Virus record (IMG/VR): IMGVR_UViG_3300017780_004980
Span: 1-64,000 of that record
Source of the DNA: a virus
Length of the DNA: 64,000 nt
Strand: one strand, 5' to 3'
Within the stretch, counting starts at the first letter, position 1. Every line of letters begins with the position of its first letter. A program made the position numbers and the translations under genes. Shown here in pieces: positions 81 to 63,952 of the stretch. A model generated the notes under the pieces. The model was not told where the DNA came from, did not search any database, and was given only the letters and a program-made list of their open reading frames with translations.

Positions 81-139
81 CTGTCGGTCCTCCATGACCA
101 ATGGGGGGGCGGGGGCCATCCCTACCCCCCGATCTCCTA

Positions 140-427
140 CTACCAGGCGGTGGCTTCGATCTCCCGCCGGTTGCTGTTGTATGCGTCCAGGGCCAGGCCC
201 TTCTTGACAGCCTGTACGGCCCCGAAGCGGGTGCGGCCCTTGCTGGCAGCGATCAGCTTCTCGACATCCTGGCGATCAGTGCATTCGATCACCACGTCCC
301 AACCATGCTCGTACATGGACAGGGCATACTGGGTCAGCACCCAGCTCGTCAGTTCTTCGACCGTCCAGCGGACAGTGTCAGCCCAATCAGTCTTCGGGGG
401 GCGGGGGGTCTTCGTCGTCTGGGCCAT
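140..427 (-). CDS. hypothetical early protein
   Basis: 95 aa ORF, AAGGAGG RBS, own promoter 471-498, GC3-rich codons. Confidence 0.8.
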   Translation of the reverse strand: MAQTTKTPRPPKTDWADTVRWTVEELTSWVLTQYALSMYEHGWDVVIECTDRQDVEKLIAASKGRTRFGAVQAVKKGLALDAYNSNRREIEATAW

Positions 428-470
428 GTGATCCTCCTTGATCTGGCTGGGGGGTGGTTCCCTTACACGT

Positions 471-498
471 ACACTGACACTGTCCCCCTAGGGGTCAA
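471..498 (-). promoter_or_regulatory. sigma70-type promoter
   Basis: TTGACC-N16-CAGTGT; GTCGCTTT box upstream. Confidence 0.6.
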
Positions 499-531
499 GG
501 GGAAAGCGACTGCCTCCCCCTTGGTGCCTGG

Positions 532-837
532 CTAGACCTCGAACACCCCGTTGCAGGCATGTTGTTGTTCCGCCCACCTCTGGGCCGCCAGGGGGTTCCT
601 GAAGGCCGCCTGGTCGAGGCGGGTGAGGCCCTGCTTGCGCCGGACATACAGCTCGAAGCCCCTGTCGGTCTCGACCACGGCCATGCGCTGCTCCGTGTCA
701 CCGTTCCAGTTTTTCAGCTTGAACTCCAGCACCACCCCGGCGGTCTGGGCATGGGCTTCATGCCTGATCTCGTCGCAGGTCCTGCCGACCCCGCCCAGGG
801 CGTCGAACAGCGGCTTGTTTTCGGTCCAGATGCTCAT
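532..837 (-). CDS. hypothetical early protein
   Basis: 101 aa ORF with GGAGG RBS and promoter 874-901. Confidence 0.8.
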   Translation of the reverse strand: MSIWTENKPLFDALGGVGRTCDEIRHEAHAQTAGVVLEFKLKNWNGDTEQRMAVVETDRGFELYVRRKQGLTRLDQAAFRNPLAAQRWAEQQHACNGVFEV

Positions 838-873
838 GTGGGTATCCTCCGTGATCCCGTTGTTTACCCTCTC

Positions 874-911
874 ATCGTGACACTGGCCTGCTGGTTTGCA
901 AGTGGTTGCAA
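874..911 (-). promoter_or_regulatory. promoter whose -35 is half of the TTGCAA operator (896-911)
   Basis: TTGCAA-N16-CACGAT. Confidence 0.6.
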
Positions 912-1154
912 ACTGAAAAGCGACACAGCGTGGGAGCCCCTGGGAGCACTGGGGGCGGCACTGGCCCGAAACAGGTAGGATCGTATGGCAGCCCTGGCGG
1001 CTTGGGCCTGGCGCCCTGGGCCATCACAGGGATGCGCTACCTGGAAAGGCAGAGCCTCTCTTGTCATGGGTGATTGTGTCCTGTCCCAGTGGCCTGGCTG
1101 GGCGGAGCCTGGCGGCACTGGGACATCTCTAGGCTCCCGAGGGGGCCGGCGAGG

Positions 1155-61378: not shown

Positions 61379-61447
61379 GTGATCCTCCGTGATCAGTACC
61401 TTCTGGACTTCCGTCGAACCTATGGTGTGTAGGTCTAGGTACGTCAT

Positions 61448-62197
61448 CTACGATATCTCTGCCCCCTCGGGGGTCAATATGGAAGCCGACCAGATGGACA
61501 GATGTTCGTTCAGGGGCCCGCCCGTCGTGATGATCTTGCCCGAGGCCGGCGGCTTGGTCGGCTTGTAGGCATCGAAGTCCTGCAACTTACCGCCCGTGAT
61601 CTTGGACAGCGTGGGCTTCTTCGCCTCATACGAACCCCAGCCGGCGTGGTGGAACAGATCGGCCTTGCTGCCCTCCACCTTCTTGGCGCCGTAGGTCGCG
61701 TGCAGGAAGTTGACCTGCTTGCTGTTTTCCACCGCCTTCTTGCAGTAGTTCACCCGCACGAAGGTGATCGGGTCGTCGTCCGCTGGCACCAGCCGGGCGC
61801 GCAGGGCTGCCAGGAACATACCGGTCCGGCCGTGGCCGCCGATGCAGCCACAGTGGATTTTCTTGCCCTCCTTGAGCCTGGACGCCGTCCATTGGACCAT
61901 GTTCTCGAACTCAGAGGGACTGGTCGGGATATCCATGTCCTGGATGCGGAAGAAGACCTCCTCGCCCTCGGTCCAGGGGTAAATCTTCGAGGTGGGCCGC
62001 ATACCGCTGTCGAAGCCGATGTAGATATCGGCGTCCTTGACGATGGGGCTGATGCAGCTGCCGCCGTAGATCGTCAGGCCTGGGGCGATTTCCAGAGGGG
62101 GGTGGCTTTCGTAGCAGCGGGGAGGTACCGGCCCTTTGGGAGTCTTGCTCTCCCAGCCGTCGAAATCCTCCCACTGCTTCTTCTTGGGTTTAGGCAT
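61448..62197 (-). CDS. PTP/dual-specificity phosphatase-fold protein (CX5R)
   Basis: IQDMDIP general-acid loop, HCGCIGGHGRTG, VR..YC..AVE..Q. Confidence 0.85.
   Translation of the reverse strand: MPKPKKKQWEDFDGWESKTPKGPVPPRCYESHPPLEIAPGLTIYGGSCISPIVKDADIYIGFDSGMRPTSKIYPWTEGEEVFFRIQDMDIPTSPSEFENMVQWTASRLKEGKKIHCGCIGGHGRTGMFLAALRARLVPADDDPITFVRVNYCKKAVENSKQVNFLHATYGAKKVEGSKADLFHHAGWGSYEAKKPTLSKITGGKLQDFDAYKPTKPPASGKIITTGGPLNEHLSIWSASILTPEGAEIS
61450..61477 (-). promoter_or_regulatory. sigma70-type promoter
   Basis: TTGACC-N16-TATCGT. Confidence 0.75.
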
Positions 62198-63347
62198 GCT
62201 CGGGGACCTTTCTGGGGATTTTCTTGACCCCGATCTTCTGGGTGATCAGGACGTGGGTTTCGGTCGTCATATGGCCATTCGGCAGCGGGACCGGAGGGAT
62301 CACCCCGGGCCCAGGCGGGGCCACGGCCTCCAGAGGCGCCGGATAGATCACCTTCGGTTTCTTGCCGGCCTTGAACGGCGGGGCGGCCTTCTGCTGGGCC
62401 GGGGTCATGTACTTGCTGTACGGGTGCATGGAGCCGAGCTCGTGGACCTTGATCCAGTCGACCGGCTGCCTGGCGAAGTCCGCCGCGCCCGGCACTTCCT
62501 CATGAACCCGACGAGCGAACTCGATCATCTCGTTGTCGACGTGCGTGTGCGAGAACAGCGAGGTCGGGTACGGATAAGGCATCATGCCCTTCGACCGCAC
62601 CAGGGCCGGTATTTGCCCCGACCTCTGGACGTCCAGGATTTCGTAGAGGCCCGCGCCGTAATTATTGTAGAGCATGCCCTTGTTGAAGATCGGGCCGCCG
62701 TTGTGGGCCAGGGTCCAGACCGTGTCGAGGAACATCTCCGCCGTCGTGTGGCCCCGGACAAACGACACCAGAGGGTCGGTCACCTGCCCCCAGGCCGGGC
62801 CGCCGAAGCTGCTGCTGTAGCTCCCGTAGTAGTGCGTGTACTGGAGACTGGCGGCGAAATCACCGATGGAGACATCCTTCAGATTGTTCCGGAATACGCT
62901 CATCGTGTTGCTGATTTCCGACGTGTCCTTGTAAGCCTTAAGGGCATCCGCGCAGGGTTGACCGAAGTGCTTGGCGATTATCGGCTGCATCTCGGACTTG
63001 TTCTCAAGGTGCCGAGCTTCGCGGGCCGTGATCACCGCCACGTAGTAGACCGCCCGCAGCATGCTCCGGGCCGCCCTGTCGTGGTATTCCTCGCAGATGG
63101 CCAGCACCGGATCGGGCAAGGGTTCATAGGGATCGAACGCCTGGGCGATGCAGTGCATCGCGTGGTTCGCCAGATAGAACCAAAGCGCGTGCTTCTCGGG
63201 CACCATACTGTCCGTGGCCGAGGCCCTGAAGTGGTCGATCTGGTCGGCGAAAACGTGCATGGGGGTGGCCGACAAGTCCCGCCGCATCATCAGGGGTCGG
63301 CCCTGAAGCTGATAGGCCACCGTGTTCTTCTTGGCTGAAAAGGCCAC
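62190..63347 (-). CDS. hypothetical protein between two phosphatases
   Basis: 385 aa; enzyme-like motifs REARH, GG.AW, DT.WTLAHNGG.IFNK; promoter 63382-63409. Confidence 0.8.
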   Translation of the reverse strand: MAFSAKKNTVAYQLQGRPLMMRRDLSATPMHVFADQIDHFRASATDSMVPEKHALWFYLANHAMHCIAQAFDPYEPLPDPVLAICEEYHDRAARSMLRAVYYVAVITAREARHLENKSEMQPIIAKHFGQPCADALKAYKDTSEISNTMSVFRNNLKDVSIGDFAASLQYTHYYGSYSSSFGGPAWGQVTDPLVSFVRGHTTAEMFLDTVWTLAHNGGPIFNKGMLYNNYGAGLYEILDVQRSGQIPALVRSKGMMPYPYPTSLFSHTHVDNEMIEFARRVHEEVPGAADFARQPVDWIKVHELGSMHPYSKYMTPAQQKAAPPFKAGKKPKVIYPAPLEAVAPPGPGVIPPVPLPNGHMTTETHVLITQKIGVKKIPRKVPEHA

Positions 63348-63381
63348 CTCGCATCCTCCATGATGCCTTAGAGATACTCGT

Positions 63382-63409
63382 ACTTTAGCTCTGGGGGCCG
63401 ACGGGTCAA
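63382..63409 (-). promoter_or_regulatory. sigma70-type promoter
   Basis: TTGACC-N16-TAAAGT. Confidence 0.75.
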
Positions 63410-63434
63410 ACTTGAAGGCGCCGGCCCCCGGCTT

Positions 63435-63929
63435 TTACCGGAGCAGGCCCAGCCAGGCCCGGACGGCCCAGCCGAACAGTTTCTTGCGGATCGGCTTCGG
63501 GTCGAAGGCGTCGATGAAGTCCTGCTGCCCTTTCGTCTCGACGGCGTGGTCCAGATAATGCTCGCGCACCCAGATCACCGCGACGGGCGGGCCCCAGTTG
63601 TCATCATCCTCGTCCTCGTCAGGCAGGAACACCTTGGCCAGGCAGCTGTAGAACGTGCCGGTCCGGCCGATGCCGCCCATGCAGCCGGCGTAGACCTCGT
63701 TGCCGATCATGGCCTGCTTGATGGCGAACTCGACACCGGCCGCCATATCGGCCTGGGTCGGGGTGCTGAAGTCCGCGCAGGGCACGGAGTGATCGAAGGG
63801 CTTTTCGATCTCGGCGGCGAGCTTGATACCGACCAGCGCCGCCGGCCGGTTGCGGTAGGGTCCGCCTCGGAACCGCAGGGTGCGGCCGAGATAGCGGAAG
63901 CTGAACGGATCATAGTGGGCAGTCGACAT
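63435..63929 (-). CDS. PTP/dual-specificity phosphatase-fold protein (CX5R)
   Basis: DFSTP, GCMGGIGRTG, VR.HY..HAVET..Q. Confidence 0.88.
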   Translation of the reverse strand: MSTAHYDPFSFRYLGRTLRFRGGPYRNRPAALVGIKLAAEIEKPFDHSVPCADFSTPTQADMAAGVEFAIKQAMIGNEVYAGCMGGIGRTGTFYSCLAKVFLPDEDEDDDNWGPPVAVIWVREHYLDHAVETKGQQDFIDAFDPKPIRKKLFGWAVRAWLGLLR

Positions 63930-63952
63930 TTGACCCTCCTTGGTCTTTCTCT

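What the first reader, a model, noticed from the sequence alone, without database searches (positions are those of the whole stretch)
86..63945. Genome-wide family of SD-in-loop hairpins with covarying stems matching the CsrA/Rsm consensus: candidate phage translational regulon
Seen in sequence (minus strand): about 21 leaders fold as stem-A(N)GGA(G/U)-stem with a C-G closing pair. The stem sequence varies while pairing is kept: GATC/GATC (430, 3564, 4606, 30323, 61380), GGTC/GACC (86, 2370), GGAAC/GTTCC (1582), GTC/GAC (1823), AATC/GATT (2821), CGCTATC/GATGGCG (11357), GCATC/GATGC (63351), GACC/GGTC (63932) and CACC/GGTG (12698). Loops are hexaloops ANGGAG (N = A, U, C), pentaloops AGGAG (9321, 12698, 21107, 22300) and once AAGGAU (4048). 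They sit mostly at the first gene after a sigma70-type promoter; I did not see them at structural-gene RBSs. Established knowledge: CsrA/RsmA/RsmE bind A(N)GGA motifs in such short hairpin loops over SD sequences; T4 RegB cleaves GGAG in early SDs. Inference: early/middle genes are co-controlled by one RNA-binding factor, either host CsrA/Rsm (linking infection to host state) or a phage-encoded repressor or ribonuclease. No CsrA homolog was recognised in this window.
Basis: partly seen in the sequence, partly recalled or inferred. Interest (0 to 1): 0.9.

Follow-up and report, generated by a model that had tools for sequence, protein, structure and literature searches.

The report
Phage CsrA-type hairpins on ribosome sites
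A 98-kb uncultured phage places the ribosome-binding site of about 30 non-virion genes in a small, evolutionarily maintained RNA hairpin shaped like the docking site of the bacterial translation regulator CsrA, and its whole phage group encodes its own divergent CsrA-like protein just outside the window, so it probably runs a private translational control circuit, though binding is untested.

Summary
All 18 listed sites exist, and about 21 lie in the window. The complete 97.8-kb genome has 31 non-redundant RBS hairpins: 4-5 bp stem, C-G closing pair in 31/31, loop A(N)GGAG. Hexaloops number 22 against 1.75 expected by flank swapping. They are real RNA structures: the RBS of one orthologous gene in 49 related phages keeps the helix with different sequences (covariation 0.59 vs 0.19 shuffled, 0/500). 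They are phage-specific. In a Roseococcus genome about 33 of 39 model hits lie in the prophage, and two unrelated Rhodobacter phages sit at background. They head promoter-proximal, non-virion genes.

This 97-aa protein is a core gene of the group (22/22 complete relatives). Its orthologues give CsrA as best Pfam and PDB match, at borderline scores. Several hosts of relatives have no CsrA, which argues against host CsrA. No RegB or RegA homologue was found.

Best reading (about 0.55): a phage-encoded long-form CsrA-like protein binds these operators. Binding and its direction are untested.

This scan noted similar CsrA-hairpin sets before in other phage genomes, and on this genome's neighbouring window.

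The parts
84..101 (-). Hairpin TTGGTC-ATGGAG-GACCGA inside the 123-bp terminal repeat. Duplicate of 97727-97744, which heads gene 97505-97723.
   Evidence: CM hit E 0.09
430..443 (-). SD-in-loop hairpin GATC-AAGGAG-GATC, RBS of gene 140-427
   Evidence: CM E 0.017
844..855 (-). Weak member ATC-ACGGAG-GAT (3 bp), RBS of gene 532-837
   Evidence: CM E 0.33
1582..1597 (-). Hairpin GGAAC-ATGGAG-GTTCC, RBS of gene 1427-1579
   Evidence: CM E 0.021
1823..1834 (-). Weak member GTC-AAGGAG-GAC (3 bp) before a 49-codon ORF starting at 1816
   Evidence: CM E 0.25
2093..2108 (-). Hairpin TTATC-ACGGAG-GATGA (two G-U pairs), RBS of gene 1915-2091
   Evidence: CM E 0.031
2370..2383 (-). Hairpin GGTC-ATGGAG-GACC, RBS of gene 2215-2367
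2821..2834 (-). Hairpin AATC-ACGGAG-GATT, RBS of gene 2567-2815
3564..3579 (-). Hairpin CGATC-ATGGAG-GATCG, RBS of gene 3301-3558
4048..4061 (-). Hairpin GATC-AAGGAT-GATC, RBS of gene 3656-4042
4606..4619 (-). Hairpin GATC-AAGGAG-GATC, RBS of gene 4364-4600
9321..9333 (-). Pentaloop hairpin GATC-AGGAG-GATC, RBS of gene 8832-9317. A promoter-like site ends 18 nt upstream.
11357..11376 (-). 7-bp hairpin CGCTATC-ATGGAG-GATGGCG, RBS of gene 10816-11352 (dG -8.4)
12698..12710 (-). Leader hairpin CACC-AGGAG-GGTG, 30 nt upstream of the ATG of gene 11414-12670. A second GGA lies in that gene's own SD (two-site layout).
21107..21119 (-). Pentaloop hairpin GATC-AGGAG-GATC, RBS of gene 20658-21101
22300..22312 (-). 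Pentaloop hairpin GATC-AGGAG-GATC, RBS of gene 22112-22297
27297..27312 (-). Hairpin CGGTC-AAGGAG-GACTG, RBS of gene 26464-27294 (no free leader: 1-nt gap)
30323..30338 (-). Hairpin CGATC-ATGGAG-GATCG, RBS of gene 30152-30319
61380..61395 (-). Hairpin TGATC-ACGGAG-GATCA, RBS of gene 60533-61378
63351..63366 (-). Hairpin GCATC-ATGGAG-GATGC, RBS of the 385-aa gene 62190-63347. This is the orthologous site used for the covariation test.
63932..63945 (-). Hairpin GACC-AAGGAG-GGTC, RBS of the phosphatase-like gene 63435-63929. Best CM hit in the genome (23.3 bits).
52663..52676 (-). Atypical outlier TTTC-ACGGAT-GAAA in the leader of gene 52175-52651, downstream of the major capsid gene. The gene's SD lies outside the loop. 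It is the only member in the virion module.

Best explanation
The hairpins are RNA operators of a phage-private, CsrA-type post-transcriptional circuit. Shown: host-type sigma70 promoters (TTGACC, N16-17, TAnnGT) drive many short transcription units of non-virion genes. The transcript would begin only a few bases before a marginally stable 4-5 bp hairpin whose C-G-closed A(N)GGAG loop carries the Shine-Dalgarno sequence. Inferred: a 97-aa divergent CsrA-family protein binds the loop and clamps the stem. It is encoded at 64330-64623 on the minus strand, behind the PPDK-like gene, and is a core gene of this phage group. Most likely this occludes the SD and turns down translation of these genes as the protein accumulates, while virion genes, which lack the hairpin, are unaffected. 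That would be a RegA-like temporal or feedback logic built on CsrA-type recognition. The operon that encodes the protein is itself headed by a hairpin (66767-66782), and the gene's own RBS is a degenerate one (GATC-ATGAG-GATC), which would give autoregulation. Binding could instead protect the 5' end from RNase E, as CsrA does on flhDC; the direction is not determined.
For: The structure is real and under selection. There are 22 hexaloop hairpins vs 1.75 expected. At the RBS of one orthologous gene in 49 phages, 74% of cells pair vs 49% in shuffles, the covariation score is 0.588 vs 0.19 (0/500), slid registers give 0.07-0.15, all 5 pairs change on both sides, and G-U pairs are tolerated. A covariance model built from the cross-phage alignment finds 31 hits at E<=0.5 in this genome, all on the coding strand.

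The hairpins match the high-affinity CsrA/RsmE ligand: ANGGAN hexaloop, C-G closing pair in 31/31, 4-5 bp stems, mean dG -3.7 kcal/mol. The published description is SELEX RUACARGGAUGU, 44/55 six-base loops, mostly 4 or fewer base pairs, and an RsmE ANGGAN loop (PMC7652899).

They are phage-specific. In Roseococcus about 33 of 39 hits at E<=1 lie on one strand of the prophage, and Azospirillum shows the same clustering. The same-host control phages RcTiptonus (6 vs 2.6 expected) and RcWaterboi (2 vs 1.7) sit at background and lack the gene, while RcZahn has 18 vs 4.8.

There is a gene-class bias: 22/54 non-structural vs 1/13 virion or lysis genes among genes with free leaders, p 0.026. No coding-strand model hit falls in 33-57 kb. 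Eleven of 31 hairpins have a strict promoter match ending 0-60 nt upstream, vs 0.4 at random.

The candidate reader protein has orthologues in 47/50 related records and 22/22 complete ones. CsrA is the top Pfam hit for 18/22 members, best E 4.9e-7, and two members pass the 27-bit cut-off. The family profile's best PDB hits are CsrA, RsmE, RsmN and RsmF, with alignment of VRvxIxAPxxIxILRGxxY to VRIGVNAPKEVxVHREEIY, including the invariant Arg that aligns with CsrA Arg44. ESM Atlas neighbours are viral 88-100-aa clusters in which 12-69% of members carry PF02599.

Hosts of relatives (Azospirillum, Roseococcus, an Acetobacteraceae MAG) have no CsrA match, yet their prophage loci carry 3-5 hairpins per 9 kb. 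Only 40 of 201 sampled Alphaproteobacteria have CsrA.
Against: No binding or regulatory data exist. The CsrA homology is borderline. This phage's own copy gives no Pfam or PDB sequence hit. It has AA in place of the AP motif and lacks the basic residues after strand 1. The profile-profile comparison with canonical CsrA gives E 3.7e-4 and only 36% probability, over the C-terminal third. The fold search ranks RsmN (Z 4.9) and RsmA (Z 4.3) below generic beta-sandwiches at Z 7-8.

Much of the loop sequence is explained by the SD itself; in RcZahn nearly all loops are AAGGAG. Every clade member has both the gene and hairpins, so there is no natural loss experiment. Two complete relatives with the gene had no strong model hit. 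The link between protein subtype and loop-closing pair (16/8/2) rests on about two changes on the tree and has no statistical power. Most leaders carry one site, whereas canonical CsrA dimers usually bridge two.
Confidence: 0.55

Rival explanations
1. The hairpin is a protein-independent cis element. It keeps the SD single-stranded in GC-rich mRNA (a translation enhancer) and/or forms a 5'-terminal stem-loop that protects short-leader transcripts from 5'-end-dependent decay. The CsrA-like gene is unrelated to it.
For: The hairpins start 7-21 nt after the predicted -10 box, at the very 5' end of the mRNA. They are weak (dG -1.6 to -8.4), so ribosomes could open them. The loop is mostly the SD consensus, especially AAGGAG in RcZahn. 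Genes with free leaders carry them far more often than coupled genes (23/67 vs 4/61).
Against: The register is fixed: the loop always starts two bases before GGA and closes on the first base after GGAG, so the last G of GGAGG is buried in the stem, which is not optimal for display. Slid registers lose the signal. In this genome the base before GGA is U or C in 15 of 28 sites, which weakens SD pairing but fits ANGGA. Host genes and two other phages of the same host do not use such hairpins. Virion genes with free leaders lack them.
Confidence: 0.25
2. Host CsrA/RsmA reads the hairpins, coupling phage early or middle gene translation to host physiology. The phage protein would have another role, for example acting on host mRNAs.
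For: The sites match the bacterial CsrA/RsmE consensus. The host of this particular phage is unknown. 20% of sampled Alphaproteobacteria, and one Acidobacteriaceae genome carrying a relative, do have CsrA. Published work proposes that phage CsrA homologues act on host targets (PMC8450108).
Against: Relatives inside Azospirillum, Roseococcus and Acetobacteraceae genomes keep the hairpins although those genomes give no CsrA match. In the Thalassobaculaceae chromosome the only weak match is the prophage's own gene. The phage group always brings its own CsrA-like gene.
Confidence: 0.1
3. Another phage factor reads or cuts the site: a RegB-like endonuclease cleaving GGAG, a RegA-like repressor, or the phage cold-shock-domain protein (86006-86299).
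For: GGAG in early-gene SDs is the T4 RegB target (established knowledge). The phage encodes a CSD protein (PF00313, E 3.4e-10).
Against: No match to RegB (PF10715) or RegA (PF01818) even at E<=1. CSD proteins bind single strands with little sequence or structure specificity (established knowledge). Nothing ties a covarying 4-5 bp stem to these factors.
Confidence: 0.07
4. The element acts at the DNA level (a palindromic operator next to the promoter, or GATC methylation sites), or is a chance or duplication artefact.
For: GATC-N5/6-GATC is the commonest form in this genome, and the sites lie just downstream of promoters.
Against: The stems covary freely (GACC/GGTC, GCATC/GATGC, GGAAC/GTTCC and others) while the asymmetric loop is conserved. 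G-U pairs occur. All members are on the transcribed sense strand, and relatives use entirely different stems. The flanks are not repeated, so this is not a duplicated cassette.
Confidence: 0.03

Closest known systems
RsmE-hcnA and CsrA-glgC/cstA translational repression (Pseudomonas, E. coli; SELEX ligand RUACARGGAUGU; RsmE ANGGAN hairpin)
   Same: A GGA in an ANGGAN hexaloop closed by C-G on a short, weak stem that overlaps the Shine-Dalgarno sequence. The candidate reader shares the CsrA beta4-beta5 motif, including the Arg aligned with Arg44.
   Different: The elements are on phage mRNAs, about 30 per genome, mostly one site per leader at the extreme 5' end. The candidate protein is 87-126 aa, with an insertion of about 35 aa, and only borderline PF02599 scores. 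Many hosts of the group have no CsrA. No CsrB/RsmZ-type decoy RNA was found (Rfam).
Phage- and plasmid-borne CsrA/RsmA homologues (Sobrero and Valverde 2020, PMC7366521; Campa et al. 2021, PMC8450108)
   Same: A CsrA-family gene carried by phages, sometimes on hosts that lack csrA.
   Different: The published homologues are described as highly similar to bacterial CsrA, as correlated with host CsrA, and as proposed to act on host targets such as CRISPR-Cas. No cis regulon on the phage's own genes is described in the papers I found. Here the protein is a divergent long form annotated 'hypothetical' in RcZahn, RHph_TM16 and RHph_Y1_11.
T4 RegA translational repressor of early mRNAs
   Same: The proposed logic: a phage protein that binds the RBS of many early or middle messages and shuts off their translation while late genes escape.
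   Different: No sequence relationship (PF01818 not found). RegA sites are unstructured AU-rich sequences, not GGA hairpins (established knowledge).
CsrA protection of the flhDC 5' end from RNase E
   Same: CsrA-type sites at the very 5' end of a transcript (PMC7652899). The hairpins here begin 7-21 nt after the -10 box.
   Different: flhDC uses two sites that do not cover the SD. Here the site is the SD.
T4 RegB endoribonuclease
   Same: The target motif GGAG lies in the SDs of early genes.
   Different: No RegB homologue. RegB needs no covarying stem.

Membership tests
CsrA/RsmE high-affinity RNA binding site | GGA in the single-stranded loop of a hairpin | tested here: met
   31 of 31 RBS hairpins
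CsrA/RsmE high-affinity RNA binding site | Six-base ANGGAN loop closed by a C-G pair (AC/GU pairing in SELEX ligands) | tested here: met
   26 hexaloops and 5 AGGAG pentaloops; C-G closing pair in 31/31; definition from PMC7652899
CsrA/RsmE high-affinity RNA binding site | Short, weak stem (about 4 bp) | tested here: met
   Stems of 4 bp (17 sites), 5 bp (12), 6 bp (1), 7 bp (1); mean dG -3.7 kcal/mol
CsrA/RsmE high-affinity RNA binding site | Overlap with the SD or start codon so that binding excludes the ribosome | tested here: met
   The position is met: the start codon lies 6-13 nt after GGA. The functional consequence was not tested.
CsrA/RsmE high-affinity RNA binding site | Bound by a CsrA-family protein | not testable with these tools
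   Needs EMSA, ITC or CLIP
CsrA/RsmE high-affinity RNA binding site | Two GGA sites per target, bridged by the dimer (typical, not universal) | tested here: inconclusive
   Most leaders have one hairpin. Two-site layouts occur at 85332-85347 with 85278-85291, and at 12698-12710 with the SD GGA.
CsrA protein family (PF02599), for the 97-aa protein at 64330-64623 | Match to the Pfam model above its 27-bit cut-off | tested here: inconclusive
   This phage's copy has no hit. Among orthologues, CsrA is the top hit in 18/22, at 11.9-27.2 bits; 2 of 10 scanned singly pass the cut-off; only profile positions about 26-50 are matched.
CsrA protein family (PF02599), for the 97-aa protein at 64330-64623 | Conserved beta4-beta5 motif (VRIGxxAP...V.V.R.E.Y) with the RNA-binding Arg44 | tested here: met
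   The family consensus xRVxIxAPxxIxILRGxxYR aligns to it, and Arg88 is invariant. In this phage's copy the AP motif is AA, but the Arg is kept.
CsrA protein family (PF02599), for the 97-aa protein at 64330-64623 | Five-strand plus helix fold forming an interdigitated homodimer of chains of about 60-70 aa | tested here: inconclusive
   AF2 pLDDT 94.7, nine strands plus a C-terminal helix in one 97-aa chain. RsmN Z 4.9 (rmsd 2.3, 52 of 64 residues) and RsmA Z 4.3 (rmsd 2.0, 55 of 57) rank below generic sandwiches at Z 7-8. Foldseek: RsmF at E 0.11. Oligomeric state not tested.
T4 RegB / RegA systems | Presence of a RegB (PF10715) or RegA (PF01818) homologue | tested here: not met
   No candidate at E<=1 in the complete genome
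Csr/Rsm system with decoy sRNA (CsrB, RsmY/Z) | A non-coding RNA with many GGA hairpins that sequesters the protein | tested here: not met
   Rfam gathering search of the whole genome finds only one tRNA. The GGA-rich stretch at 4.6-5.9 kb holds a plausible 248-aa ORF.

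The most novel reading that the evidence does not exclude
A whole clade of roughly 90-117-kb siphophages, mostly of CsrA-less Alphaproteobacteria and including the cultured phages RcZahn, RHph_TM16 and RHph_Y1_11, carries a self-contained CsrA-type regulon. A long-form, possibly single-chain pseudo-dimeric CsrA relative would read single hairpin operators placed at the 5' end of early and middle mRNAs, acting as a RegA-like temporal switch independent of any host Csr system.
Probability: 0.45. Interest if true: 0.8.

Novelty: new variant of a known kind. Interest (0 to 1): 0.7.

Why it matters
CsrA is one of the best-studied bacterial post-transcriptional regulators. Phage-borne copies have been catalogued but never given a function or a target set, and the published proposal is that they manipulate host genes. 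Here the targets appear to be the phage's own messages, in a group whose hosts mostly lack CsrA, so the circuit would be private to the virus. The hairpins provide a ready-made, evolutionarily validated operator set of about 30 per genome across hundreds of natural sequence variants. The cultured relative RcZahn on Rhodobacter capsulatus makes the hypothesis directly testable. If the protein proves to be a monomeric long-form CsrA with a single RNA site, it would also extend the structural repertoire of the family beyond RsmN/RsmF.

Tried and rejected
- The PF02599 search of the genome at E<=10 and regex motif scans found no canonical CsrA. The candidate was recognised only after its orthologues were collected.
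- A single-protein search for close relatives in IMG/VR with DNA polymerase found none.
- The search for related loci with the CsrA-like alignment failed for lack of a conserved stretch.
- The Foldseek PDB search gave no significant match.
- I considered a CsrB-like decoy RNA in the weakly coding 4.6-5.9 kb stretch and rejected it. The stretch holds a plausible 248-aa ORF with atypical codon usage and has no Rfam hit.
- I tested co-evolution of protein subtype with loop-closing pair. The cross-table looks strong (16/8/2), but the traits change only about twice on the tree, so the test has no power.
- The 'CsrA' annotation of Vibrio phage vB_VneS_J26 ORF99, which is syntenic between PPDK and the phosphatase, gives no Pfam hit and lacks the conserved Arg. 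It is not independent support.
- I did not run complex prediction, because dimerisation would not discriminate between the explanations.
- My first start-codon caller, which picked the best SD, chose internal starts and was replaced.

Full report
**What the window is.** The window is the first 64 kb of a complete 97,766-bp virus record with 123-bp direct terminal repeats. It is 63% G+C, and all of its roughly 128 genes lie on the minus strand. Its gene order is colinear with the cultured Rhodobacter capsulatus siphophage RcZahn: ParB, terminase, PPDK-like, small protein, phosphatase, 385-aa protein, phosphatase, DNA polymerase I, portal, protease, capsid, tail, lysis, replication, then many small genes.

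**Checking the observation.** Every one of the 18 listed coordinates shows the described minus-strand stem-loop (exact extents).
- A mechanical census used loops ANGGAN or AGGAN with at least 4 Watson-Crick pairs directly flanking. It gives 36 hits on the coding strand against 7 on the other.
- Of 170 ANGGAG sites on the coding strand, 22 have such a stem. When 5' and 3' flanks are swapped among the same sites the expectation is 1.75, with a maximum of 8 in 5000 permutations. For AGGAG the figures are 7 against 0.87.
- After removing the terminal-repeat duplicate, the genome has 31 hairpins with a start codon 6-13 nt after the GGA.
- The closing pair is C-G in 31 of 31. The second pair is U-A in 22. 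Stems are 4 bp (17 sites) or 5 bp (12 sites).
- Loops are AUGGAG (11), AAGGAG (8), AGGAG (5), ACGGAG (4) and three singletons.
- Folding energy is -1.6 to -8.4 kcal/mol, mean -3.7.
- About 21 of the hairpins are in the window; the rest lie between 64.6 and 97.1 kb.
The site at 84-101 is the repeat copy of 97727-97744. The site at 12698-12710 sits 30 nt upstream of its gene's start, with a second GGA in the real SD.

**The hairpins are a selected RNA structure.** Using the 385-aa protein (62190-63347), which carries one of the hairpins, I collected 223 homologues and 80 related viral loci at 40% identity or less.
- Those loci hold 221 such hairpins on the gene strand and 34 on the other, against about 68 expected by flank swapping.
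- At the RBS of the orthologous gene itself, 49 distinct phages keep the helix with quite different sequences: CACC/GGTG, AACC/GGTT, TGCC/GGCA, GCAC/GTGC, TCGGC/GCCGA, CTCA/TGAG, and GCATC/GATGC in this phage.
- On this gap-free alignment, 74.3% of cells pair against 48.7% in shuffles (0/500). The covariation score is 0.588 against 0.190 (0/500). Sliding the 3' partner by 1-3 columns drops it to 0.07-0.15.
- All five pairs show changes on both sides, and G-U pairs occur. This points to RNA and not to a DNA palindrome.
- A covariance model built from this cross-phage alignment, in which only one row comes from this genome, finds 31 hits at E<=0.5 here, all on the coding strand. Of the 52 hits at E<=10, 47 are on the coding strand. 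No coding-strand hit lies in the virion module at 33.4-57.3 kb.
- On whole records, 21 of 23 complete relatives have hits at E<=0.1, up to 31 per genome, almost all on the gene strand.

**Where the hairpins sit.** Among genes with a free leader (15 nt or more to the upstream gene), 22 of 54 non-structural genes carry the hairpin against 1 of 13 virion or lysis genes (Fisher p 0.026).
- Hairpins are tied to free leaders: 23 of 67 against 4 of 61, p 1.5e-4.
- RcZahn repeats the pattern. It has 18 hairpins on the coding strand against 3 on the other, with 15 hexaloops against 2.9 expected. All 18 precede start codons and none is at a virion-gene RBS.
- Upstream of many hairpins lies a host-type promoter (TTGACC, N16-17, TAnnGT). 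With a strict pattern, 11 of 31 hairpins have one ending 0-60 nt upstream. Random positions give 0.4, and non-hairpin genes with free leaders give 3 of 44.
- In nine cases the hairpin starts 7-21 nt after the -10 box, so it would lie at the extreme 5' end of a short leader.

**Not a general property of the hosts.** The same model was run over three bacterial genomes that carry relatives.
- In Roseococcus pinisoli (4.8 Mb), about 33 of the roughly 39 hits at E<=1 lie on one strand of the ~100-kb prophage region.
- In Azospirillum sp. RU38E the hits cluster in the phage contig. Only the 150 best first-look candidates were scored per genome, so the chromosomal counts are rough.
- Two other R. capsulatus phages sit at background: RcTiptonus (85 kb examined) has 6 against 2.6 expected and RcWaterboi 2 against 1.7. 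Neither shows a GGAG-loop RBS hairpin.

**The candidate reader protein.** A Pfam CsrA search of the genome was negative even at E<=10.
- The 97-aa product of 64330-64623, 330 bases beyond the window, has an N-terminus and a C-terminus reminiscent of CsrA strands 1 and 4-5. On its own it gives no Pfam or PDB hit.
- Its orthologues sit at the syntenic position, between the PPDK-like gene and the phosphatase, in the related loci. They show a much clearer signature: MxLVLSLKxGxDFYV ... xRVxIxAPxxIxILRGxxYR, with an invariant Arg.
- CsrA is the top Pfam hit for 18 of 22 members, best E 4.9e-7. Scanned singly, ten members score 11.9-27.2 bits and two pass the 27-bit cut-off. The match covers only the strand 4-5 and helix half of the domain.
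- The family profile's best PDB sequence hits are CsrA, RsmA, RsmE, RsmN and RsmF (E 0.06-0.7). The alignment places the invariant Arg on CsrA Arg44.
- Profile-profile comparison with five canonical alphaproteobacterial CsrA proteins gives E 3.7e-4 and 36% probability.
- AlphaFold2 with the family alignment gives a confident single-chain model (pLDDT 94.7) of nine strands and a C-terminal helix.
- Foldseek finds nothing significant, with RsmF at E 0.11. The exhaustive aligner finds RsmN (Z 4.9, rmsd 2.3 A, 52 of 64 residues) and P. aeruginosa RsmA (Z 4.3, rmsd 2.0 A, 55 of 57 residues, on model residues 42-97). Both rank below generic beta-sandwiches at Z 7-8.
- ESM Atlas neighbours are mostly viral clusters of 88-100 aa in which 12-69% of members carry PF02599.

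I read this as a divergent, long-form relative of CsrA with an insertion of about 35 residues. Its family membership is borderline, and this phage's copy is the most divergent one. The gene is core to the group: it is present in 47 of 50 related records and 22 of 22 complete ones. In RcZahn (gp7), RHph_TM16 and RHph_Y1_11 it is annotated 'hypothetical protein'.

Genomes carrying relatives were searched with PF02599.
- Azospirillum sp. RU38E, Roseococcus pinisoli and an Acetobacteraceae MAG give no match.
- In a Thalassobaculaceae chromosome the only weak match is the prophage's own gene.
- An Acidobacteriaceae MAG has a true CsrA.
- The prophage loci in the CsrA-less genomes nevertheless carry 3-5 hairpins per 9 kb on the gene strand, against 0-1 on the other.
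- In a sample of 201 genomes of the same class, 40 have CsrA. This agrees with the lower prevalence outside Gammaproteobacteria noted in PMC13443453.

The host of this particular phage is unknown, and I could not test R. capsulatus itself.

**Other candidates.** No RegB (PF10715) or RegA (PF01818) homologue is present. A cold-shock-domain protein is encoded at 86006-86299, but nothing links it to a covarying stem. Rfam finds only a tRNA and no CsrB- or Rsm-type decoy RNA.

**Comparison with what is known.** The review PMC7652899 describes the high-affinity CsrA ligand. [quoted passage not shown] RsmE NMR structures show an ANGGAN loop. The hairpins here meet each of these features. The same review describes CsrA binding at the 5' end of flhDC mRNA as protection from RNase E, so the direction of control here is open.

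Phage-borne csrA genes have been catalogued. They were found in 30 of 2,517 phage genomes, some on hosts without csrA (PMC7366521). Other work found many in GenBank and IMG/VR, described them as highly similar to bacterial CsrA and correlated with host CsrA, and proposed that they repress host CRISPR-Cas (PMC8450108). In five literature searches I found no description of a hairpin regulon on a phage's own genes.

The Vibrio phage vB_VneS_J26 paper labels the syntenic ORF 'CsrA' (PMC12038007). That protein gives no Pfam hit and lacks the Arg, so I do not count it as support.

**Mechanism, with steps marked.**
- Shown: the hairpins exist, covary, are strand-, phage- and class-specific, lie next to promoters and hold the SD. 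The group always encodes a CsrA-like protein. The operon that encodes it is itself headed by a hairpin (66767-66782), and the gene's own RBS is a degenerate variant (GATC-ATGAG-GATC, 64629-64641).
- Inferred: the protein binds the loops. Binding stabilises the weak stem and blocks the 30S subunit.
- Open: repression versus 5'-end protection. Monomer with one site versus dimer; most leaders have a single site. Two-site leaders exist at 85332-85347 with 85278-85291, and at 12698-12710 with the SD.

**A test that failed to decide.** Loci with C-G-closed loops encode the ...ILRGxxYR subtype of the protein. Loci with A-U-closed loops (CA-ANGGAG-UG) encode a GNRLAFEAPKxIRIxR subtype (16, 8 and 2 exceptions). 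On a tree of the 385-aa protein both traits change only about twice, so the independent-pairs test has no power. The pattern is compatible with co-variation but is not evidence for it.

**Verdict.** I file it as a new variant of a known kind: CsrA-type control carried privately by a phage clade. It is testable in RcZahn. Earlier notes of this scan describe similar hairpin sets in other phage genomes that carry csrA, and the same system on this genome's neighbouring window. I treated these as leads only.

Noticed in passing
window 896-911, 1658-1673, 2888-2903, 4669-4684, 4844-4859, 5701-5716, 9386-9401, 12745-12760, 33266-33281, 55699-55714 (also genome 67898-67913, 82226-82241): There are twelve exact copies of TTGCAACCACTTGCAA. 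Some lie just upstream of the -35 of hairpin-bearing units. Others lie 5-25 nt before start codons of late genes (protease, PAS/lysis head), with a near-copy before portal. Related phages have similar TTGCAA-N4-TTGCAA sites before their CsrA-like gene. This is probably a DNA operator or promoter element of a second regulatory layer.
   Followed up: partly
genome 85278-85347 (L082:1278-1347), minus strand: The leader of the conserved 251-aa gene (84528-85283) carries two GGA hairpins about 40 nt apart, GGGCC-ATGGAG-GGCCC and GGCC-ACGGAT-GGCC, downstream of a TTGTCA/TATAGT promoter. This is the classic two-site CsrA target layout.
   Followed up: partly
window 52663-52676, minus strand: TTTC-ACGGAT-GAAA is the only family-like hairpin in the virion module. 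It lies in the 117-nt gap after the major capsid gene, and the real SD (GAGGA) lies downstream of it.
   Followed up: no
window 4600-5914: This 1.3-kb stretch has weak GC3 signal and is enriched in GGA (34 vs 22 per kb). It contains a plausible 248-aa ORF (4970-5716) with atypical codon usage, probably a recently acquired gene.
   Followed up: partly
window 3120-3137 vs 2821-2834, minus strand: The leaders of genes 2922-3116 and 2567-2815 are paralogous (CCCAACGGCA..TCA.GGAGGATTGCCCGATG). In one copy the 5' arm reads ACTC in place of AATC, which breaks the stem. This is a natural stem-broken variant.
   Followed up: no
window 58634-58649 and 59789-59804, minus strand: Two perfect 5-bp ATGGAG hairpins lie away from confirmed starts. 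One is inside the DNA polymerase gene. The other (GCCAA-ATGGAG-TTGGC) lies 19 nt before the TTG start predicted for DNA polymerase. Their membership is uncertain.
   Followed up: no
genome 86006-86299 (L082:2006-2299), minus strand: A phage-encoded cold-shock-domain protein (PF00313, E 3.4e-10).
   Followed up: no
genome 84110-84181 (L082:110-181), minus strand: The single tRNA gene (Rfam RF00005, 59.5 bits). It is the only Rfam family found in the genome.
   Followed up: no
L102:8575-9057 (Vibrio phage vB_VneS_J26, PP534163): The gene annotated 'sRNA-binding carbon storage regulator CsrA' is syntenic with the family studied here. It has no Pfam CsrA hit and lacks the conserved Arg, so the published label rests on weak grounds.
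   Followed up: yes
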